NCBI GenBank assembly: GCA_039809865.1
Contig: JBDHVW010000011.1
Span: 31,470-95,469, forward strand
DNA: 64,000 bases
Direction: 5' to 3'
Source: Vulcanimicrobiota bacterium
Lineage (GTDB): Bacteria; Vulcanimicrobiota; Xenobia; Xenobiales; QWHO01
Below the pieces are notes generated by a model that worked only from the letters and a program-made list of their open reading frames with translations, had not been told where the DNA came from and made no database searches. Position numbers and translations under genes: made by a program. Each line of letters begins with the position of its first letter. Within the stretch, counting starts at the first letter, position 1. Below are positions 3,218 through 30,130 of this stretch, piece by piece.

Positions 3218-6200
3218 AATCCGCTCCAGGTGCGATTGTCCAGCCACATCTCGGTGATCTCCTCGGCCGGGACGGGCTCGCTGAAGTAGAAGCCCTGGGC
3301 GAGCTCGCAGCCTTTATCCAGGAAGAACGTGGCCTGCTCGGGGGTCTCCACGCCCTCGGCCACGGAGCGCACGCCCAGGTTGGAGCAGATGCCCAGGACG
3401 GCCACGCAGATGCTGGCGCCGTGCCGGCTGCCGACGTCGGAGACGAGCGTGCGGTCGAACTTGAGCATCTTGACCTGCGTCAGGCGCTTGAGCGACGAGA
3501 ACCCGACGCCGAAGTCGTCGATGGCGATCGACGCGCCCGTGCGCGCCAGCTCCTCGAGCGTCAGGTCGGTCCGCTCGGGGTCGACCAGGTTGGAGCCTTC
3601 GTTGATGTCCAGCACGATCGACTTGGGATCGGTGTTGGTGACTTCCAGAGCCTTCAAGAACGTCTTGGCCAGGTCGGCCTGCATGAGCTGGCGCGTGCCC
3701 ACGTTGATGGCCGTGAAGATCTCCAGCCCCTCGTCACGCCAGAGCGCCGCCTGACGGCAGCCCTGCATGATCGCCCAGGTACCGATGGGCACGATCAGGC
3801 CGGTCTCGTCGGCGGTCGGCAGGAAGTCGGCCGGGAGCAGCACCTTGTTCAGCTCGGGATGCCGCCAGCGAATCAGCGCTTCGGCCCCGGCCAGGCGACC
3901 GCTCGAGAGGTGGACGATCGGCTGATAAAGCAGCGTAAACTCGTCGTTCTCCAGCGCCTGCCGCAGCTGGCCGTCGAGCGACAGTTTGCGCTGGCGTCGT
4001 TGCTTGAGGTCGGCCGTGTAGAACTGCAGGTTGTTGCGACCGGCTTCCTTGGCGGCCACCATGGCAGTTTCGGCGTGCTCGATGAACTCCTCGGCGGTCT
4101 CCGCGTCCAGGCTGATGCTGGCTCCGATACTGGCGGTGACGTGCAGCTTCTGGTTTTGCACCGAGTACGGGGGCGCCAGGGCTGAGAGAATGCGGTTGGA
4201 CACCAGGGTGGCCATCTGCTTGCAGGCGTTCATCCAGTCTTCGGGCGTGCGCACCTCGGGCAAATCACCCTTCTCCAGCTCCGAGAGGAGGATGAGAAAC
4301 TCGTCGTCGCCCCGGCGCCCCAGCACGTCGGACTCGCGGGTCAGGGCCTTGAGGCGGTCGGCCACCTGGCGCAGCACCTCGTCGCCCGCGCGGAAGCCGA
4401 GCGTGTCGTTGATGACCTTGAAGCGATCGAGATCGATGCACAGCAAGGCGGCACCGCGCTTGTAACGATGGACCTGCTTGAACGTGTAGTCGATGTACTG
4501 CTGGAGAATGTTGAAGTTGGGCAGATTGGTGAGGCGGTCCTCGAACGCCATCCGCTCGGTCTCGGGATCGAGCTCGGCGCCCTCGCCCGATTTCAGGCGC
4601 TCCTCGGCCTCGTGATACTTGCGTTTGAGGTTGTCGATCTCGCGCTCGAGCTCGACCACCTTCTCCTCGGCCGTGCGCAGGCGCGCGCTGGCCTGCACCA
4701 TGCGCTGCTCGGACTGGAAGAGCCGATCGACCGACTCGCGCGCCTTCTGCTCGGCGGTCTTGGCGCGGGCCTCGGTGTCCTCGAGCTTCTTCTTGAGCTC
4801 GTCGAGCCCGGACTGGTCGGCCACGCTCCGGGCACTTTCCAGCGCCTGACGGGCCTGCTCGAGCTCCTCTTTGAGCTGGATCGTGTTGGCCTCGACCTCG
4901 CTGAACTTCTCCTCGAGCTCGGCGGCCCGCTCGTTCGCCTCGTGAGCTTCTTCCTCGAGCTCGGCCTGCTTGGCCTCCGCCAGCTCGGCGCGCTCCACCG
5001 CTTCCAGCTCGGTGCGCTCGGCGTTCTCCAGCTTCTCGCGCAAGGCCGTCATCTCGGCCGAGCTGGTTGACGGCGCCTCGGTCGGCGCGGCCGCGTCGGC
5101 GGTGGCGGCCGTGCGCCCGGTGGCGACTTCCAGCGAGCGCAGCTTGCGCTCGGCCTCGCGGGCGCGCTTCTCGGCCACATCGGCCCGCTCTTCGGCGGCC
5201 CGGGTGGCTTCGTCGGTCTCTTCGTAGATCTGCTTGATCTGCTCGAGGCGGAACTCGGTCTGCTTGAGCTTTTGCTCGAGCTCCTCGGTGGCCTGCGCGG
5301 CCGCCGTCATCTTCTCCTCGGCCTCCTGGGCCCGGGTCTGGGCCTGCTCGAAAGCGTCCTTCGAGGGCGCCGCGGCCAGCTTGTCCTCGGCCTCGAGCAG
5401 GTTGGCCTCGAGCATCTCGAGCATCTCCCGCAATTCGGCAGCCCGCGTCTCGGCGTCAGAGGAGCCCTTGACCTTCGTCTCCAGCTCGTCGATGCGGCCC
5501 TGGTGCTCGGCGGCCTCGGCCTGAGCCTGCTCCAGCTGAGCCTGCAGCTCTTCTCGCAGCTGCTGGGCCTCGGCGAGCTGGGCGTCAAACTCGGCTCGCG
5601 CCTTATCGACGGCCTCGGTATTGGTTTCCAGGGCTTTCTTCTGACGTTCGGCCTCGGCCAGCTTGTCCTCGGCCTCGAGCAGGCTGGCCTGCGCCGTCTG
5701 CAGCTGCTCCTCCATCTCGCCCAGGCGATTCTCGGCCTCGCGCTGCTTGGCCGTCAGGGTGGCGCTGTTGGCCTCGGCCTCTTTCAGCCGGGCCTCGAGC
5801 TCCTTCTGCTTCTCGTCGAGCTCCTCGCGCCGCGCCTGCTCTTCTCGCAGCTTGCTCTCGGCCTCTTCCAGCCGGGTCAGCTTGGTCTCGAACTCGCGCA
5901 GAGCCGCACCGTGGCTTTCATCGGCGTTGCGCAGGCGCTCCTCGAGCTCTTCGCGGGCGCGCTCGACCTCCGAGAGCTTCTCGGCCATGTCGTCCTCGCC
6001 CGCCAGGCGCTCCTCAAGCTCCTTGCGCGCGCGCTCGGCTTCGGAGAGCTGGTCGGCCATGCGTTGCCGGGCCTTGATCTCCTCCTCGTGCTTGAGGTCG
6101 AGGTCTTCGAGCTTGGTCTCCAGCTCGGAAAGGCTGCTCTTGAGGTCGTTCTTGTCGTCCTCCAGCACCAGGAGCTGTTTCTCCAGCACCTCGACCTGGC

Positions 6201-24119: not shown

Positions 24120-24470
24120 TCAGGCCACTGCCTTCTGCAACATGAGCTCCGTGTCCACCCAGACGGCGAGCTCCTCGGGGCAAACGGGAGACTCGAGCAC
24201 GATGGAGGCCCTGTCCATTCCCGGCTGTACTCCCTCACTGCCGGCCAGGCAGACCAGCGGCATCCAGGGCGCTACCCAGCTCAGCTCGCTGAGCATATGG
24301 TTGGCGTGGCGGCCCGAGGACACCACCAGCTCGATCGACTCGCGCACGATGAGTTCGGTGGCCGAAGTGATGTCGGCCGCTTCGTGAACCCTGTGGCCGG
24401 CGGCTTTCAGGACGTTGCTCCAGCGCCGGCGGTCCAGCACCGAGCTCTCAACAATCAAAACGTTCGCCAT
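24120..24470 (-). CDS. Pseudo-receiver (REC-like) domain protein
   Basis: REC-like beta-alpha pattern 'ANVLIVESS...' but the acidic pocket and phospho-acceptor Asp are not conserved (ESS, VVSSG). Confidence 0.45.
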   Translation of the reverse strand: MANVLIVESSVLDRRRWSNVLKAAGHRVHEAADITSATELIVRESIELVVSSGRHANHMLSELSWVAPWMPLVCLAGSEGVQPGMDRASIVLESPVCPEELAVWVDTELMLQKAVA

Positions 24471-24497
24471 CGTGTATTCCTCCAGCTGGCTTTTCTG

Positions 24498-24511
24498 CTA
24501 TTAGAATAGCG
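24498..24511. promoter_or_regulatory. Inverted repeat GCTATT-AG-AATAGC in a divergent promoter region, possibly an operator
   Basis: Visible palindrome 'gctattagaatagc' 28 bp upstream of the pseudo-receiver start. A second GCTATT half-site lies at ~24690, inside the start of the NarL-type regulator gene. Confidence 0.35.
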
Positions 24512-24683
24512 AATCCGGCCCGGGGCCCGCATCGGGCGTCTCCCTCTCCCAAGAAGGGGGATCCCCCTGCGCAAAGGTAGGGGAAACCCCCATCGTCAGC
24601 AGTTGCCTGCCAGCTTCCCAGGTGCTAAACTCTGGTTACTGTGAGGGGCGGGTCAGAGCGGTTCCAGCGCTGAGTTTCGGGTT

Positions 24684-25322
24684 TTGAAAGCTATTGCCTT
24701 GACAAAAGTCGCGCTTGTGGACGACCACGATCTTGTCCGGGGGGCATTCCGCTCGATCCTGGCTCAGGAGCCCGATCTCGAGATCGTGGCCGAGCTCAGT
24801 TCGGCCGATCAGCTCGGGCTCTTGGAGACTTCCAAGCCCGACGTCGTCACCCTGGATTTGATGTTGCCCGGGCCACTATCGGGCCGGGACCTGGCGGTTC
24901 GAATCCGCGAAATGTACCCGTCACTCCACATTCTGGTCGTATCGCAGCGAATCGAGTCGGTCGAGTTACAATACCTCGTTCGCGCGGGCGTCAAAGGCTT
25001 CTTGAGCAAACGCAGCGCTTTCGAGGAGTTTAGCCGGGCCATCCGCACCGTGGCGGCGGGACAATTCTACTTCTGCCCGGAGTCCTCCAGCGCGCTCGCC
25101 TCTTCGGTCGGGGTCACGAACGACTCCCCCCTGAGCGACCGCGAGGTGGAGATCCTCTCGCGGGCCGCGCGTGGGGCCACCGTCAAAGAGATCGCCGACG
25201 CCCTGTGCATCTCCCCCAAGACGGTGGAGAAGCACCGGGGGAGTATTCTGCGCAAACTCGAGAGCCGCAATATCCTCGAGGCCCTGCAACGGGCCCGAGA
25301 GCTCAAGCTGCTGTCGGACTAG
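24684..25322 (+). CDS. NarL/FixJ-family response regulator (REC + LuxR-type HTH)
   Basis: 'VALVDDHDLVRG', 'DVVTLDLMLPG' and the conserved K in 'KGFLSK'. C-terminal 'SDREVEILSRAARGATVKEIADALCISPKTVEKHRGSILRKL' is a GerE/LuxR helix-turn-helix. Confidence 0.85.
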   Translation: MKAIALTKVALVDDHDLVRGAFRSILAQEPDLEIVAELSSADQLGLLETSKPDVVTLDLMLPGPLSGRDLAVRIREMYPSLHILVVSQRIESVELQYLVRAGVKGFLSKRSAFEEFSRAIRTVAAGQFYFCPESSSALASSVGVTNDSPLSDREVEILSRAARGATVKEIADALCISPKTVEKHRGSILRKLESRNILEALQRARELKLLSD

Positions 25323-26376
25323 CCTGCGATGGGGCCGCGACGACCCCGAAAGTCAGCCGGATCTCCAGGATGCGCTGGAGGTTGGCCATGAACACCTCCA
25401 CCACCCGGGGATCGAAATGCTTGCCGCTGCTGCGGTTGATCTCGGCTACCGCCTCCTCCACCGGCCAGGCCTTCTTGTAGGGACGCTCCGAGGTGAGCGC
25501 ATCGAAGACGTCGCAAACCGCGACCAGCCGGCCCACTACCGGAATATCCTCCCCGCTGAGACCCTGCGGATAGCCGGAGCCGTCCCACTTCTCGTGGTGC
25601 GTGCGCGCGATGACCTCGGCCATCTGCAGCAGCTCGCTGCGAGCTCCCGACAGGATGCGCGCCCCGATCTCGGCGTGCGATTTCATGACCTCCCATTCCT
25701 CGGGAGTCAGCTTGCCGGGTTTGAGCAAGATGTGGTCCGGAATACCGATCTTTCCCACGTCGTGCATGGCGCTCGCGTGCCGCAGCAGCTCCACCTGACG
25801 CTCCTCCATTCCCCAGGCCTCGCCCAGGACCGAGCAGTATTCGCCGATGCGATGAATATGGTTGCCGGTGTCGTCATCGCGATACTCGGCGGCCAGCAAC
25901 AGCCGGCGCACCACCTCCAGGTGCGCGTCCTCGACCTCGCGCGCGAGGTTGCACCTGGCTTCCAGATTGCGGCGATGAACGACCCGGAGCTCGAGCAGGT
26001 TGGTGAGCTTGATGACGGCCTCCTGGGCCGTGAAGGGCTTCTGCAAGAAGTCCCGGGCGCCCATCCGCAAAGCGCGCAGCCGAACCTCATCGCCCAGGTC
26101 GCCGGTCAGGGCCAGCACGGGAACCCAGCTCTCGTCGCTCTCCACGGCACGCAGCTCCTCGAGGATCTCCCAGCCGCTTTTCCCCGGCAGCTTGAGATCG
26201 AGCACGACGGCGTCGGGCCGGTGCTCCATGTACAGTCGATAAACCTCCTGGGGGTCGGAGGTGGTGATGACTCGGGTGAAGCCCTCTCGCGCCAGAATCT
26301 TCTGCAGCAGCATGAGCACGTGGGGCTCATCGTCCACGATGAGAATGCGAGAGTGTTTCAGGCGCAGGCTGTCCAT
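25303..26376 (-). CDS. Response regulator with an HD-GYP c-di-GMP phosphodiesterase domain (RpfG-like)
   Basis: REC: 'ILIVDDEPHV', 'VVLDLKLPG', 'FLQKP'. HD-GYP: 'HD' in 'AMHDVGKIGIPD', 'HHEKWDGSGYPQGL' (GYP) and 'ERPYK'. Confidence 0.9.
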   Translation of the reverse strand: MDSLRLKHSRILIVDDEPHVLMLLQKILAREGFTRVITTSDPQEVYRLYMEHRPDAVVLDLKLPGKSGWEILEELRAVESDESWVPVLALTGDLGDEVRLRALRMGARDFLQKPFTAQEAVIKLTNLLELRVVHRRNLEARCNLAREVEDAHLEVVRRLLLAAEYRDDDTGNHIHRIGEYCSVLGEAWGMEERQVELLRHASAMHDVGKIGIPDHILLKPGKLTPEEWEVMKSHAEIGARILSGARSELLQMAEVIARTHHEKWDGSGYPQGLSGEDIPVVGRLVAVCDVFDALTSERPYKKAWPVEEAVAEINRSSGKHFDPRVVEVFMANLQRILEIRLTFGVVAAPSQASPTAA

Positions 26377-26491
26377 CGAGTCGTCCTCCGGGGATAATTA
26401 CCTGCTGGCTCTATCGGCGTGAAGGAAAGACTTTGAAGGGGGTTCGCGAAAACGAGGCGCCTGAAATCAGCAATGTCAGGAGCGCCAGCCC

Positions 26492-27400
26492 GTGTTGAAA
26501 TGGCCTGTAATCGTGAATCCGAGCTCGGGCGGCGGCAAGGGAAAAGCTGCCGAGGAAGTCTTGCAGGCATTCTGCGAGGCCCATGACGGCGAGCTCTTCT
26601 ACACCGAGCAAGAGGGACAGGGCACCGAGATCGCGCGCCGGGCCGTCGAGGCCGGCGTGGAGCGCATCGTGGTGGGGGGCGGAGATGACACCGTGCGGGA
26701 GATCCTGGCGGGAATGCTGCACGTCGAGAAGCCTCCCCAGCTCGGAATCTTGCCGCTGGGAACCTACAACAACTTTGCGCGCACGCTGGGTCTGCCCCTC
26801 GACCCGGCCCAGGCCATCGAGGTCGCGGTCAAAGGCCACAAGATGGGGGTCGACCTGGGTCAGGTCAACGGCGAGCGCGTTTTCACCGAGAGCGTGGGCG
26901 TCGGCTTTCAGGCCGACGCCTGGTCCCACAAGCCCGAAGTGGAGCCGGTGGGGATGCGGCGCCTGCTCGCGGGCGCCAGCATCGCGCTCGAGACCCTGGG
27001 CCACTACGAGCCGCACCTGTTCTATCTCACCATCGATGGGGCCGAGCAGGCGATTCGCGCCATGGATATCACCGTGGCCAACACCCCGGAGTTTGCCAAC
27101 GCGGTCACGGCCGCTCCCCTGGCCAGCGTGTCCGACGGCGTTCTCGACGTCTGCACGATCAAAGAGCTCTCCATGTTCGAGTTCCTGGCCGCCGTGCCCC
27201 TGATCTTCTCGGGACTGCATGCCTCCCTGATGTCCTCGGTCGACTACCACACAGGCAAGAAGGTGATCATCCGCGCGCCGGCCGAATCCCACCGCTGCCC
27301 CGTGCGCGTGGACAGCAGCATCGATCTGGCTCTGCCGGTCACCATCGAGGTCCTGCCCAGTCGCATCCAGGTGAGGGTTCCCCAGACGCAGTGGCCTTGA
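26492..27400 (+). CDS. DAGK_cat-family kinase (YegS/BmrU/diacylglycerol-kinase-like; same fold superfamily as NAD kinases)
   Basis: 'VIVNPSSGGGKG', 'VVGGGDDTV' (GGDG-like), 'LGILPLGTYNNFAR' (compare GTGNDFAR) and a C-terminal 'SVSDGVLDV'. GTG start. The stop overlaps the start of the downstream SIR2 gene by 10 bp. Confidence 0.8.
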   Translation: MLKWPVIVNPSSGGGKGKAAEEVLQAFCEAHDGELFYTEQEGQGTEIARRAVEAGVERIVVGGGDDTVREILAGMLHVEKPPQLGILPLGTYNNFARTLGLPLDPAQAIEVAVKGHKMGVDLGQVNGERVFTESVGVGFQADAWSHKPEVEPVGMRRLLAGASIALETLGHYEPHLFYLTIDGAEQAIRAMDITVANTPEFANAVTAAPLASVSDGVLDVCTIKELSMFEFLAAVPLIFSGLHASLMSSVDYHTGKKVIIRAPAESHRCPVRVDSSIDLALPVTIEVLPSRIQVRVPQTQWP

Positions 27401-28986
27401 CGGGGGGTCATCTCTTCATCCTGCGCGGCGACCTGAAGAGGCTGCAGTGCGATGCGTGGCTGCTCCCCGCGGGACGCTCGCTGCGGGTGGAGGACTACTG
27501 GCTGGACGCGCTTCCCTGGGCGGCGCGGGACGAACGCGGCCGGCTGGCGCTCGACAGCGTGCCGACCGCCTGGACCGAAGGTCATCTGCGCACTTTCCCG
27601 GTTGCGCGCGAGCCCCTGCCGGGCGAGGGTTGGCCGTGGCTCACCAATGTAGGCTACCGCGGCGAGCGCCACCGCCACGAAGGGATGACGCAGGGGATGG
27701 TCCAGTGGTTCACCGACGGCTTGCTGGCTTTTGTCAACGGCTGGCTGGCCGCGCCCACGCCACGCCGCACCGACCGCCCTCTGCCGCTCCTGGCCGTGCC
27801 GCTGGTCGGCACGGGACGGGGCGGGGGTCAGGCCTTCGAAGGCACGCTGGTCCACAGTCACGTGGCCGCGCTGCTCGAGCTGGTCCAAAGCCGGCCGGTG
27901 GACGTCGCGCTGGTCACCTACAGCGAGCAGGCCTTCACCGCCGCTCAAGAAGCCCGCAAAACCCTGTTGCGTCGCTCGGGCGATGGCTGGCCGCTGGCGC
28001 CCGACCAGCTTCTGCTGGCCACCGAGCTGGCCGAGAAGGCCATGCGGGGGGACCTGGTGCTGTTCCTGGGCGCCGGCGTCAGTCGCGGGGCCGGTTTGCC
28101 CGATTGGCAGGGTCTCTTGCGCGAGTTGATGGAGCAGGCGGGGATGTCGGCCCACGAGGCCAGTGCCACAGCCGACCTGAGCGTGCTGGACCAGGCGCGC
28201 ATCGTGCAGCGCCGATTGAAACGCCAGGGTCGCGAGCTGGGCTCCGCTCTGGTGGAGCGGTTCGGCGTGGAGCAGTATGGCCTGGTGCACGGCCAGCTGG
28301 CTTCGTTGAGCGTGCGCGAGACGGTGACCACCAATTATGATCCGCTCTTCGAGACGGCTTCGCGGGCCTGCGGCCACGAGGTGGCAGTGCTCCCCTACAG
28401 TCCCGTCTCGGGCTGCACGCGCTGGCTCTTGAAGCTGCACGGCTGCGTGCACCATCCCGAGGATATCGTCCTCACCCGCGAGGACTACCTGCGCTATTCC
28501 AACAACCGCGCGGCCCTGGCCGGGATCGTGCAGACCCTGTTGCTCACCAAGCACATGCTGTTCGTGGGCTTCAGCCTGCAAGACGACAACTTTCTGCGCA
28601 TCGTCGACGACGTCCGCAGGGCGCTGCGGCGGACCCCGACCGAGGAGTCGTTTGGCACCGCGCTGCTGCTGCGTTGCGATCCCATCTTGCGCGAGCTCTG
28701 GGAAGGCGAGTTGGAGCTGGCCAGCCTGGGCGAGTTGGACGAGGAGCACGGCCTGGTGGCGCGCCGCCTGGAGATCTTCCTGGACTTCCTGCTGTCGCAG
28801 GCCACCTCGCACACCGCCTACCTGCTGCGCCCCAACTTCGAGGGCGCCCTGACACCCTCGGAGCAGGCACTGCGCAAAGCCTTGCTGGAGTGGCTCGAGG
28901 AGCTGCCCGAAAAGGCCCGGGAGGCGCCCGCCTTCGAGCAGTTGGAGCGAGCTCTGGAAAGGCTCGGTTATCGTCCCGACAGGTGA
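27391..28986 (+). CDS. Macro-like N-terminal domain fused to a SIR2_2 (defence-type sirtuin-like NADase) domain
   Basis: N-terminus: 'LFILRGDLKRLQCDAWLLPAG' (compare macro GDIT...DAIVNAAN), 'LAVPLVGTGRGGG' (compare IAFPAISTGxxG) and a terminal 'VDVALVTYSE' strand. C-terminal half carries SIR2_2 signatures 'LFLGAGVSRGAGLPDWQGL', 'TTNYDPLFE', 'KLHGCVHHPEDIVLTREDY' and 'LFVGFSLQDDNF'. GTG start, translationally coupled to the upstream kinase. Confidence 0.75.
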   Translation: MALTGGHLFILRGDLKRLQCDAWLLPAGRSLRVEDYWLDALPWAARDERGRLALDSVPTAWTEGHLRTFPVAREPLPGEGWPWLTNVGYRGERHRHEGMTQGMVQWFTDGLLAFVNGWLAAPTPRRTDRPLPLLAVPLVGTGRGGGQAFEGTLVHSHVAALLELVQSRPVDVALVTYSEQAFTAAQEARKTLLRRSGDGWPLAPDQLLLATELAEKAMRGDLVLFLGAGVSRGAGLPDWQGLLRELMEQAGMSAHEASATADLSVLDQARIVQRRLKRQGRELGSALVERFGVEQYGLVHGQLASLSVRETVTTNYDPLFETASRACGHEVAVLPYSPVSGCTRWLLKLHGCVHHPEDIVLTREDYLRYSNNRAALAGIVQTLLLTKHMLFVGFSLQDDNFLRIVDDVRRALRRTPTEESFGTALLLRCDPILRELWEGELELASLGELDEEHGLVARRLEIFLDFLLSQATSHTAYLLRPNFEGALTPSEQALRKALLEWLEELPEKAREAPAFEQLERALERLGYRPDR

Positions 28987-29609
28987 GCGCCGAACCAGTC
29001 CAGAGTTCGCCGCCAGCCGTCTTCCCAGTCTTTGGGGCGCATGAAGTGGTCTGATTTCGGGTACTCTCGATAGGTCTGACCGATGGCGCGAGTAAACTCG
29101 CGGGCCGGACCGGGCGGAACGTTGACGTCCTGACCCGCGTTCCAGGCGAAGAGGGCGACCCCCTGGTAGGCTTCCGGCTCGAGATGGGGGCTGTCATCGG
29201 AGTCCGGCCAGACAGGCGACCCGAGAATCGGCACCACCGCCCGTACCCGGCGGGTGGCCCGAGGCGCCGCGAAGGCGATGTAGCCGCCCATCGAGATGCC
29301 CGTGACCCCGAAAGGCCCGGTATCCTCCATCTGGCTGAGCCGCTCGATGAGCATCGGCAGCTCGGCCACGGTTGGCCGGACCAGCTCCAAGAAGCCCTGA
29401 CCCTCGGTCTTTCTCTCGCCGTGACCATGGGCGTCGACACCGATGGCCAGGAAGCCGCGCTCGGCGATCTGGGTCAGCTCCTTGCGGTGGGTGGACTTGT
29501 CGGCTTTGAGTCCGTGGTAGAGAAGAACCGTGCCGGGATAAGGGCCATGCGGCTGCTCGGCCATGGCCAGCAGCGGGACCGCGTCGAGGAAGAAGCTGCG
29601 TGTGAACAT
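28968..29609 (-). CDS. Alpha/beta hydrolase (dienelactone-hydrolase/carboxylesterase-like)
   Basis: 'VLLYHG', nucleophile elbow 'GISMGG', and later Asp/His-containing segments. Convergent with the SIR2 gene, with 3' ends overlapping. Confidence 0.65.
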   Translation of the reverse strand: MFTRSFFLDAVPLLAMAEQPHGPYPGTVLLYHGLKADKSTHRKELTQIAERGFLAIGVDAHGHGERKTEGQGFLELVRPTVAELPMLIERLSQMEDTGPFGVTGISMGGYIAFAAPRATRRVRAVVPILGSPVWPDSDDSPHLEPEAYQGVALFAWNAGQDVNVPPGPAREFTRAIGQTYREYPKSDHFMRPKDWEDGWRRTLDWFGAHLSGR

Positions 29610-29659
29610 CGGAGCTTACTGTAACAGGGCGTTTACAAATTCCTATCGCCGCAGCGTGT

Positions 29660-30130
29660 ATGAAGGGTTCGATGATCACCAGCGTCGCCACTCCCCGCCT
29701 GGCCTTTCCGCGGCCTCCCGCCACCGTGCTGGTGGAGCCGCCGCCGGATGGCTATACGGGCAGCGTGGACAGCTATCGGGAGATCCGGCAGGCGATGGTG
29801 TTCGCGGCTGGACCCATCGCGGGGCTCATGCTGGGCGCCTACGCGGGCTTTGCCACCGGGGCGGGCGCCGGACTGTGCGGGGCGCTGGCGCTGGGCGCCG
29901 CCGGAGCAGCCGCGGGCTTCATGGCCGGGCAGTACAGCGATTTGCTGAACGGAATGGCCGGCCGCCACACGAACCACTACGCCTACGGGCTCATCGGAGG
30001 CGGCCTGGCGGGGCTGGCCGGCGGAGCCATCCTGGGCGCGTCTCTTTCCAGCCCCTGGCTGGCGGGCGGAATGGCCCTGGCTGGAGCGCTAGGGGGAACC
30101 TACTGGACGATGCTCGCGCTTGGCCACTAG
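29660..30130 (+). CDS. Glycine-zipper-rich membrane protein (similar in character to the CDS at 15244..15639)
   Basis: Long GxxxG/AxxxG-rich hydrophobic C-terminal region. The start is uncertain (ATG at 29660 or 29672). Confidence 0.4.
   Translation: MKGSMITSVATPRLAFPRPPATVLVEPPPDGYTGSVDSYREIRQAMVFAAGPIAGLMLGAYAGFATGAGAGLCGALALGAAGAAAGFMAGQYSDLLNGMAGRHTNHYAYGLIGGGLAGLAGGAILGASLSSPWLAGGMALAGALGGTYWTMLALGH

What the first reader, a model, noticed from the sequence alone, without database searches (positions are those of the whole stretch)
26492..28986. Translationally coupled two-gene operon: DAGK_cat-family kinase + macro-like/SIR2_2 fusion. Candidate undescribed NAD+-depleting defence or signalling system.
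The SIR2 gene's GTG start (27391) lies 10 bp inside the 3' end of a YegS/DAGK_cat-family kinase gene, so the two are co-transcribed and probably translationally coupled. SIR2_2 domains of this type (GAGxS...TTNYD...KLHG) are the NADase effectors of Thoeris ThsA, DSR, SIR2-HerA and pAgo-SIR2 systems. DAGK_cat kinases share a fold superfamily with NAD kinases. A kinase/macro-SIR2 pairing does not match any described defence system that I know of. One hypothesis is that the kinase makes or modifies a phosphorylated small molecule (lipid or nucleotide) that the macro-like domain reads out, and this gates NAD+ hydrolysis. The locus sits among unrelated housekeeping and signalling genes, convergent with an alpha/beta hydrolase.
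Basis: partly seen in the sequence, partly recalled or inferred. Interest (0 to 1): 0.85.

Follow-up and report, generated by a model that had tools for sequence, protein, structure and literature searches.

The report
Macrodomain–SIR2 enzyme beside a lipid kinase
The two overlapping genes are real, but the kinase is only a lineage-specific neighbour of a widespread, uncharacterised enzyme that fuses an ADP-ribose-binding-type macrodomain to an NAD-cleaving-type SIR2 domain and usually occurs alone or next to ADP-ribose-processing genes.

Summary

The interpretation as a two-gene kinase + SIR2 system is not supported. Among 160 family loci from reference genomes and metagenomes, the kinase is adjacent only in the four closest relatives (71-72% identity), which belong to one Xenobia/Eremiobacterota clade. 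Look-ups of other clade members that share the flanking synteny, plus one 55%-identical relative with an orphan gene inserted between the two, also show the link. Kinase relatives at 59% and 41% identity lack SIR2.

The macro-SIR2 protein belongs to a large family (more than 1,270 clusters at 90% identity; at least 297 species). It is normally a stand-alone gene. In 26 of 160 loci it lies within 8 kb of an NrtR-type Nudix regulator, an ADP-ribosylglycohydrolase-phosphatase fusion or ARPP-1, the "ARG-centric" ADP-ribose conflict system.

Most likely it is a self-contained, ADP-ribose-ligand-gated NADase. That makes it a new variant of a known kind, of moderate interest.

The parts
26492..27400 (+). 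YegS/Rv2252/BmrU-family lipid kinase gene (302 aa; DAGK_cat + YegS_C). It is the upstream operon neighbour and not a conserved partner of the SIR2 family.
   Evidence: It is adjacent to the SIR2 gene only in one clade. A 41% relative is instead coupled to a HAD/PGP-phosphatase-like gene.
27391..27400 (+). Overlap between the kinase 3' end (stop TGA 27398-27400) and the SIR2 start (GTG 27391; alternative TTG 27397). It implies co-transcription and possibly translational coupling.
   Evidence: Relatives show an overlap, a 4-nt gap or abutting genes.
27391..28986 (+). Macro-SIR2 gene (531 aa plus stop), a member of a widespread full-length-conserved family.
   Evidence: The full-length AF2 model has pLDDT 94.4 and pTM 0.94.
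27391..27981 (+). N-terminal macrodomain (aa 1-197). Conserved motifs are GHLF..GDL..CDAWLLP (D21 and W23 invariant) and PLVGTGxGG (P137 and G144 invariant; T141, G142 and G145 nearly invariant in the 65-sequence alignment). The canonical glycine-rich loop 1 is not evident.
27997..28983 (+). SIR2_2 (ThsA/DSR2/KomC-type) domain with its C-terminal helical extension (aa ~203-531).
   Evidence: Pfam SIR2_2. PADLOC ThsA1 and Dsr models. Foldseek to BcThsA at 2e-14, then DSR2 and KomBC. phmmer to DSR2 and ThsA. No conserved four-Cys Zn module.
28069..28083 (+). GAGVS NAD-binding glycine motif (aa 227-231).
   Evidence: G227 and G229 are invariant in 65 family members. The motif aligns to DSR2 GAGVS.
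28327..28341 (+). TTNYD motif (aa 313-317) with the catalytic-type Asn315.
   Evidence: T313, N315 and D317 are invariant. The motif aligns to DSR2 ITTNYD, residues 130-135.
28438..28440 (+). Codon for His350 (in KLHG), the equivalent of DSR2 H171.
   Evidence: Invariant in the family. It aligns to DSR2 H171, the residue mutated in the inactive H171A structures.
28968..29609 (-). Convergent alpha/beta hydrolase (context only). Its 3' end overlaps the SIR2 3' end by 19 nt, so the operon ends here.
   Evidence: The gene is syntenic in close relatives.

Best explanation
The locus is a two-gene operon in one Xenobia/Eremiobacterota clade. An ordinary YegS/BmrU-family lipid kinase gene lies upstream of, and is co-transcribed with, a member of a widespread stand-alone family of macrodomain-SIR2_2 fusion proteins. 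The functional unit is the fusion protein alone. Its N-terminal macrodomain most likely binds ADP-ribose or an ADP-ribose derivative (inferred). Through its tight packing against the ThsA/DSR2-type SIR2 domain, it would then control NAD+ cleavage by that domain (inferred from the conserved Asn315/His350 and the lack of a Zn module). That is the logic of Thoeris ThsA, with a macro sensor in place of SLOG and no TIR partner. In other lineages the same gene is placed under or next to an NrtR-type ADP-ribose-responsive regulator and the ARG/phosphatase/ARPP 'ARG-centric' system. This puts the family in ADP-ribose/NAD+ conflict or homeostasis. The kinase has no conserved functional link to it.
Against: No biochemical data exist for any family member, so NADase activity, the ligand and the gating are all inferred. 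Canonical macro loop 1 (GGG) is not evident, so the ligand may not be plain ADP-ribose. The family is well conserved (42-50% identity between phyla). Most loci, including this one, sit among housekeeping genes and not in defence islands. No phage-borne copies were found. These points fit a regulatory or metabolic role as well as a defence role. The kinase-SIR2 overlap persists in about six species-level lineages, and in L092 at 55% identity despite an inserted gene, so a clade-specific functional link is not excluded.
Confidence: 0.5

Rival explanations
1. A fused writer/eraser or product-processing enzyme. The SIR2 domain ADP-ribosylates (or deacylates) a macromolecular target, and the macrodomain removes the ADP-ribose mark or hydrolyses O-acyl-ADP-ribose. 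This is the logic of the SirTM-macrodomain pairs and fusions. It would serve endogenous regulation or NAD/ADP-ribose homeostasis, not abortive infection.
Against: The SIR2 domain groups with the NADases ThsA, DSR2 and KomC and not with SirTM or canonical deacylases. The MacroD catalytic loop 1 is not evident, and the best sequence match is the non-catalytic binder macroH2A1.1. No GcvH-L/LplA-type target genes are nearby.
Confidence: 0.28
2. The kinase and macro-SIR2 form a dedicated two-gene defence or signalling system. The kinase makes a phosphorylated small molecule that the macrodomain reads, and this gates NAD+ hydrolysis.
For: The start/stop overlap is conserved in the clade. The linkage survives in L092 at 55% SIR2 and 67% kinase identity despite an inserted gene. 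The remodelled macro pocket could take a non-canonical ligand. DAGK_cat shares a fold with NAD kinases, although the NAD_kinase match is far below threshold (E 0.078).
Against: The kinase is absent from 156 of 160 family loci. It is absent at 50% SIR2 identity. Kinase relatives at 59% and 41% identity lack SIR2. Close relatives share the whole synteny block, so their adjacency carries no extra information. The kinase is a generic TIGR00147 lipid kinase with no PADLOC hit. The locus is not a defence island. No such system is described in the searched literature.
Confidence: 0.08
3. A TIR-independent or trans-acting Thoeris-like effector. The macro-SIR2 protein is activated by an ADP-ribose-derived signal made by an unlinked enzyme, either a TIR or ART encoded elsewhere or a phage ADP-ribosyltransferase.
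For: Its domain logic is a hybrid of the two known ThsA types. The ARG-centric neighbours are proposed to respond to viral ADP-ribosylation.
Against: No TIR family appeared among the listed neighbour families. Only the top 25 families per census are listed, so single occurrences could be hidden. An unlinked partner cannot be tested with contig-level data.
Confidence: 0.14

Closest known systems
Type I Thoeris effector ThsA (SIR2-SLOG)
   Same: The SIR2_2-type NADase domain is the best match by PADLOC (1.4e-32) and Foldseek (2e-14). The catalytic Asn and His are conserved. There is no Zn module. One polypeptide joins a nucleotide-binding-type domain to SIR2.
   Different: The sensor domain is an N-terminal macrodomain, not a C-terminal SLOG. 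No ThsB/TIR gene is adjacent. The ThsA profile matches only over its SIR2 part (positions 11-216 of 478).
Type II Thoeris effector ThsA (TM-macro)
   Different: The effector is SIR2 and not a transmembrane module. There is no TIR partner. Other macrodomains (MacroD, PARP9/14, Af1521) are structurally closer.
SirTM-macrodomain systems and the fused Mfs1 (Rack et al. 2015; PDB 8rsn)
   Different: The sirtuin here is SIR2_2/ThsA-like and not class M. There are no GcvH-L/LplA2 neighbours. The domain order and family are different.
DSR2 / DSR1 defence-associated sirtuins
   Same: The N-terminal SIR2 NADase domain is homologous (phmmer 1.1e-17), and H350 equals DSR2 H171.
   Different: DSR proteins are about 1,000-1,250 aa with a large C-terminal phage-protein sensor. 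This protein is 531 aa with a macro N-terminus. Its NCBIfam Dsr2 score is 46 bits against a 1,400-bit cutoff.
ARG-centric ADP-ribose conflict systems (Iyer et al. 2022, PMC9503650 section 3.8)
   Same: In 26 of 160 family loci the macro-SIR2 gene lies within 8 kb of the NrtR-type Nudix transcription factor, the ARG-phosphatase fusion or ARPP-1; TY-Chap2 also occurs among immediate neighbours.
   Different: Those systems were defined by the absence of a coupled sirtuin, and only 'Macro' and 'NADAR' are listed as accessories. The window itself contains none of these genes.
YegS / BmrU / DgkB soluble lipid kinases (DAGK_cat)
   Same: The kinase matches DAGK_cat + YegS_C and passes the TIGR00147 subfamily cutoff.
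   Different: It is below every equivalog cutoff (YegS, DgkB, MamU), so its substrate is unknown. A link to SIR2 is not a feature of the family.

Membership tests
SIR2_2 / ThsA-DSR-type (NADase-type) sirtuins | Match to Pfam SIR2_2 above the gathering score | tested here: met
   93.7 bits against a 24.5 cutoff
SIR2_2 / ThsA-DSR-type (NADase-type) sirtuins | Conserved catalytic Asn and His (DSR2 N133/H171 equivalents) | tested here: met
   N315 and H350 are invariant in 65 members. They align to DSR2 TTNYD and H171.
SIR2_2 / ThsA-DSR-type (NADase-type) sirtuins | No Zn-binding four-Cys module (unlike canonical deacylase sirtuins) | tested here: met
   No conserved Cys quartet: only C20 and C352 columns are 30% Cys or more within domains. 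The feature is described for this subfamily in PMC12700824.
SIR2_2 / ThsA-DSR-type (NADase-type) sirtuins | NAD+ glycohydrolase activity | not testable with these tools
   Needs an enzyme assay
Thoeris (type I) | C-terminal SLOG domain in ThsA | tested here: not met
   The ThsA1 profile is matched only at positions 11-216 of 478. The C-terminus is a short helical extension.
Thoeris (types I and II) | Adjacent ThsB TIR-domain gene | tested here: not met
   Window neighbours are response regulators, a hydrolase, DUF6624 and Band_7. No TIR family is listed in the censuses of 72 and 73 neighbours, although only the top 25 families are shown.
DSR1/DSR2 | Protein of about 1,000-1,250 aa with a C-terminal sensor region; NCBIfam equivalog score | tested here: not met
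   531 aa. Dsr2 46.2 bits and Dsr1 42.8 bits against 1,400-bit cutoffs.
Macrodomain superfamily | Macro fold | tested here: met
Macrodomain superfamily | Sequence-level membership (a Pfam Macro family hit) | tested here: not met
   No Pfam hit at E<=10. There is only a marginal profile match to the macroH2A1.1 macrodomain, E 0.0044.
Macrodomain superfamily | ADP-ribose binding, with or without hydrolysis | not testable with these tools
   The loop-2-like GTGxGG motif and D21 are conserved, but the canonical GGG loop 1 is not evident.
SirTM-macrodomain system | Class-M sirtuin with GcvH-L/LplA2 operon partners | tested here: not met
   The sirtuin's best matches are ThsA, DSR2 and KomC. No such neighbours were found.
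YegS/Rv2252/BmrU lipid kinase family | DAGK_cat + YegS_C domains and the TIGR00147 cutoff | tested here: met
   (153.5 bits against 118.65)
Two-gene kinase + SIR2 system (as proposed) | Adjacency conserved across distantly related carriers of either gene | tested here: not met
   4 of 160 SIR2-family loci, all at 71-72% identity. Kinase relatives at 59% and 41% identity have no SIR2 neighbour. Exception: L092, with SIR2 at 55% identity.
Two-gene kinase + SIR2 system (as proposed) | Location in defence islands | tested here: not met
   No meaningful PADLOC hit in seven flanking window genes. Enrichment across genomes was not tested.
ARG-centric ADP-ribose system (Iyer 2022) | ARG, phosphatase, ARPP, or Nudix/WYL transcription factor genes adjacent | tested here: not met
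   None in the 64-kb window. At least one of NrtR, ARG or ARPP-1 is within 8 kb in 26 of 160 loci of other family members.

The most novel reading that the evidence does not exclude
In this Xenobia clade the YegS-like kinase has been recruited as a signal generator. It would phosphorylate a small molecule, a lipid head-group or an ADP-ribose/NAD-related nucleotide, that fits the remodelled macro pocket (which lacks the canonical GGG loop) and switches on the SIR2 NADase. That would be a kinase-triggered NAD+-depletion system with no TIR or cyclase. The conserved start/stop overlap and the survival of the linkage in L092 are the only support.
Probability: 0.07. Interest if true: 0.8.

Novelty: new variant of a known kind. 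Interest (0 to 1): 0.4.

Why it matters
The proposed kinase-SIR2 'system' should not be pursued as a general defence system. The useful product of this check is the macro-SIR2_2 family itself. It is large, spans several phyla and is uncharacterised. Databases call it only 'SIR2 family protein', because Pfam does not detect its macrodomain. It joins the sensor type of one Thoeris class to the effector type of the other, without a TIR partner. It is also repeatedly wired to NrtR-type regulators and to the ARG/phosphatase/ARPP system, which was defined as lacking a sirtuin. If it is an ADP-ribose-gated NADase, it could be the missing effector arm of those predicted anti-ADP-ribosylation systems, and a simple single-protein model for ligand-gated SIR2 activation.

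Tried and rejected
1. A STAND-type Ser/Thr kinase (Pkinase-AAA_16-TPR) as a recurrent partner. It was found in 11 + 6 loci, but at variable distance (0.1-5.6 kb) and orientation, and mostly in Polyangium synteny. Rejected as background.
2. A TIR/ThsB partner. None was listed in the neighbour censuses.
3. The 432-aa middle gene of L092 as a third component. It has no Pfam or PADLOC hit. Its only relative (35% identity over 43% of the query) sits in an ABC-transporter context with no kinase or SIR2 nearby. Rejected.
4. A metagenome scan with the kinase alone returned no relatives.
5. A DAGK-like gene 1.1 kb downstream of a 37% family member (L080) is a single case. I roughly estimate about 0.16 such cases by chance, so it was not taken as support.
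6. Phage carriage. One weak hit covering only the SIR2 domain in IMG/VR.
7. The promoter/terminator scan found nothing, and may not apply to this phylum.
8. GC composition shows no island signature.
9. The macro subtype fused to other effectors. The longer proteins are tandem macro-SIR2 units or carry extensions with no Pfam match.
11. My heuristic gene caller mis-called at least one neighbour (L012 downstream), so the censuses give lower bounds.
Full report
OBSERVATION. The window carries two co-directional ORFs at the stated coordinates: 26492-27400 (302 aa) and 27391-28986 (531 aa). The kinase stop TGA is at 27398-27400. The second ORF can begin at GTG 27391 (10-nt overlap) or at the in-frame TTG 27397 (a TTGA 4-nt overlap). 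GTG-GCC, giving Met-Ala, matches the N-termini of relatives (MAGHLF, MAMKGHLF), so GTG is the more likely start. The first protein has DAGK_cat (3.6e-31) and YegS_C (1.4e-22). It passes the NCBIfam TIGR00147 YegS/Rv2252/BmrU lipid-kinase cutoff (153.5 against 118.65 bits) but no equivalog cutoff. The second has Pfam SIR2_2 (1.4e-26, aa 310-430) and matches PADLOC ThsA1 and Dsr models over aa ~211-416 only. The convergent gene 28968-29609 is an alpha/beta hydrolase whose 3' end overlaps the SIR2 3' end by 19 nt.

ANATOMY OF THE SIR2 PROTEIN. Residues 1-200 and 431-531 have no Pfam match even at E<=10. An AlphaFold2 model built on 65 homologues is very confident (pLDDT 94.4, pTM 0.94), which indicates one rigid two-domain body. 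Foldseek against the PDB gives BcThsA (2e-14), DSR2, KomBC/HAM-SIR2 and SeThsA, at about 22% identity over about 290 columns. phmmer aligns the window's TTNYD with DSR2 ITTNYD, and His350 with DSR2 H171, the residue mutated in the inactive H171A structures. The GAG motif at 227-229, N315, D317 and H350 are invariant in the family. No four-Cys Zn module is conserved.

IS THE KINASE A CONSERVED PARTNER? The SIR2 protein belongs to a large family conserved over its full length. More than 1,270 clusters at 90% identity passed E<=1e-5, with 42-50% identity and 98-99% coverage in Chloroflexota, Planctomycetota and other phyla. At least 297 species genomes carry it, including Myxococcota, Actinomycetota and Vulcanimicrobiota.

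Five distant members on long contigs have no kinase next to them: P0012, P0034, P0066 and P0105 (42-46% identity), and P0008 (50%). Close relatives (72-78%: P0003, P0004, P0005) do have the kinase directly upstream. They also share the whole downstream block of alpha/beta hydrolase and DUF6624, and most also Band_7, so their adjacency is inherited synteny.

I then tested this systematically. tblastn with the kinase against 80 genome loci found it adjacent only in L012 and L013 (71-72% SIR2 identity), whose kinases are 96% identical to each other. One partial DAGK-like match lies 1.1 kb downstream in L080. In a second, independent set of 80 metagenome loci, the kinase was adjacent only in the two 71% relatives, L096 and L097. 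A Pfam census of the immediate neighbours gave DAGK_cat in 2 of 72 upstream genes. Three other loci of the same phylum (L017, L049, L063; 41-44% identity) lack it.

From the kinase side, the 59% relative (L093) and a 41% relative (L094) have no SIR2 neighbour. L094 is instead coupled by a 4-nt overlap to a HAD/PGP-phosphatase-like gene, a lipid-metabolism-like context.

There is one informative exception. In L092, a Candidatus Eremiobacterota MAG, the 67% kinase is followed by a 432-aa gene and then by a macro-SIR2 that is 55% identical over 238 aa (E 8e-75) and cut off by the contig end. All three abut or overlap. The middle gene has coding-type codon GC. It has no Pfam or PADLOC hit. Its only relative, in a 5.8-billion-protein collection, sits in an ABC-transporter context with no kinase or SIR2.

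So the linkage characterises one clade: about six species-level lineages, with SIR2 identity of 55% or more and kinase identity of 67% or more. It is absent everywhere else. A clade-specific functional link remains possible but unproven. No paper in the searched library links a DAGK/YegS kinase with SIR2 or phage defence.

WHAT DOES RECUR NEXT TO THE FAMILY? Clustering of neighbouring ORFs revealed three recurrent proteins. Pfam identified them as an NrtR-type Nudix + winged-helix regulator, an ADP-ribosylglycohydrolase fused to a DSP-type phosphatase, and ARPP-1. At least one of them lies within 8 kb in 17 of 80 genome loci and 9 of 80 metagenome loci. I roughly estimate that chance would give fewer than one locus. 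Arrangements include NrtR(-)/ARPP(+)/ARG-DSP(+)/SIR2(+) with gaps of 84-112 nt (L064, L088). Others have only an NrtR gene beside the SIR2 gene: divergent and 82-205 nt upstream in delta-proteobacterial L051 and metagenome contig L101, or convergent and 176-216 nt downstream in L104 and in Pseudomonadota MAG L018. The census also found TY-Chap2.

This is the 'ARG-centric' system of Iyer et al. 2022, which they proposed to counter viral ADP-ribosylation and to be regulated by ADP-ribose-sensing Nudix or WYL factors. Those authors selected for the absence of a coupled sirtuin and list only Macro and NADAR as accessories (PMC9503650). The window itself has no such genes. Its flanks are a LuxR-type response regulator, an HD-GYP-type response regulator, the hydrolase, DUF6624 and Band_7, with no meaningful PADLOC hits and no GC anomaly.

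The macro subtype is found in 1,496 clusters at 50% identity. All eight of the longer proteins I checked carry SIR2_2, as tandem two- and three-unit fusions or with extensions that have no Pfam match, and none carries another effector domain. The two domains therefore form a dedicated unit, and head-to-tail assembly may matter. The family is essentially absent from viral contigs.

MECHANISM. Best supported (confidence about 0.5): the macro-SIR2 protein is a self-contained unit in which the macrodomain binds ADP-ribose or a derivative and controls NAD+ cleavage by the SIR2 domain. This is ThsA-like logic with a macro sensor, as in TM-macro ThsA (PMC11204291), in place of SLOG and with no TIR partner. 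The shown steps are the folds, the catalytic residues, the rigid two-domain packing, the family-wide architecture and the genomic links to ADP-ribose systems. The inferred steps are ligand identity, gating, NADase activity and biological role.

Rivals:
- A fused writer/eraser or product-processing enzyme like SirTM-macro (0.28). High conservation and housekeeping contexts favour it. The ThsA/DSR-type SIR2 and the missing MacroD loop count against it.
- A trans-activated Thoeris-like effector (0.14).

COMPARISON AND NOVELTY. The protein is a member of SIR2_2 and of the macrodomain fold superfamily. It is not a member of Thoeris (no SLOG, no TIR), DSR1/2 (size and NCBIfam scores) or SirTM systems. 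SIR2_2 proteins carrying a Macro label appear in a published tree (PMC12700824), so the architecture has been glimpsed but not characterised. I rate it a new variant of a known kind. The kinase is an ordinary family member.

VERDICT. Interest is 0.4. That score rests on the uncharacterised macro-SIR2 family and its unreported wiring to NrtR/ARG-centric systems, not on the kinase pairing.

Noticed in passing
L092:131-3042 (NCBI GCA_040755595.1, JBFMAR010000978.1): A three-gene operon: kinase (67% identity), an orphan 432-aa gene, then macro-SIR2 (55% identity, cut by the contig end), with overlapping or abutting starts. The middle gene has coding-type codon GC but only one distant relative in 5.8 billion proteins, and that relative sits in an ABC-transporter locus (L177).
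   Followed up: yes
L060, L064, L067, L074, L077, L078, L083, L086, L088 (Arthrobacter, Microbacterium, Agrococcus, Herbiconiux etc.); also L018, L051, L084, L101, L104, L133, L143, L150: The macro-SIR2 gene is embedded in or adjacent to an NrtR-type regulator, an ARG-DSPc fusion and ARPP-1 (TY-Chap2 also appears in the upstream-neighbour census). This is the ARG-centric system that Iyer et al. 2022 defined as lacking a coupled sirtuin. Some non-actinobacterial loci have only an NrtR + macro-SIR2 pair.
   Followed up: partly
P0241 (1693 aa), P0242 (1112 aa), P0265 (1170 aa), P0329 (1028 aa): Natural tandem fusions of two or three macro-SIR2 units in one polypeptide. This hints that the protein works as a head-to-tail oligomer.
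   Followed up: partly
L013 (CAZWUN010000122.1): This contig is labelled 'uncultured Burkholderiales bacterium', yet it carries a kinase 96% identical to that of the Candidatus Xenobia MAG contig L012, and the same kinase-SIR2 pair. It is probably mis-binned. L044, labelled a Bifidobacterium breve MAG, also carries a 39% family member, which looks out of place.
   Followed up: no
L010:5563-7134 (GCA_013328935.1): The SIR2 homologue P0005 is annotated as only 377 aa, starting at 6001. tblastn homology begins at 5563 and overlaps the kinase end. The start is probably mis-called, or there is a frameshift.
   Followed up: no
window 28968-28986: The 3' ends of the SIR2 gene and the convergent alpha/beta hydrolase gene overlap by 19 nt. 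No terminator-like hairpin was found anywhere in 26300-29700.
   Followed up: partly
window 24120-26376: A cluster of three regulator genes lies directly upstream: a 116-aa ORF whose L008 orthologue is a receiver-only response regulator, a LuxR/GerE-type regulator, and an HD-GYP-type (HD_5) response regulator divergent from the kinase gene. In the close relative L008 the cluster is syntenic and sits next to a PAS hybrid histidine kinase.
   Followed up: no
L094/L095:4459-5921: Kinase relatives at about 41% identity overlap by 4 nt with an upstream HAD/PGP-phosphatase-like gene. This suggests that the ancestral context of this kinase subfamily is lipid or phosphatidylglycerol-phosphate metabolism.
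   Followed up: no
L080:10495-11442: A DAGK_cat-like gene lies about 1 kb downstream, on the same strand, of a 37%-identical family member in a Nanopelagicales MAG. It is the only kinase case outside the Xenobia clade and is compatible with chance.
   Followed up: partly
L001:1-13614 (Chloroflexota MAG): Here the family member sits near ParA/ParB, an HTH_3 protein, several genes with no Pfam hit and an AAA_11/AAA_12 helicase. This looks like a mobile-element or defence-island context, unlike most other loci.
   Followed up: no
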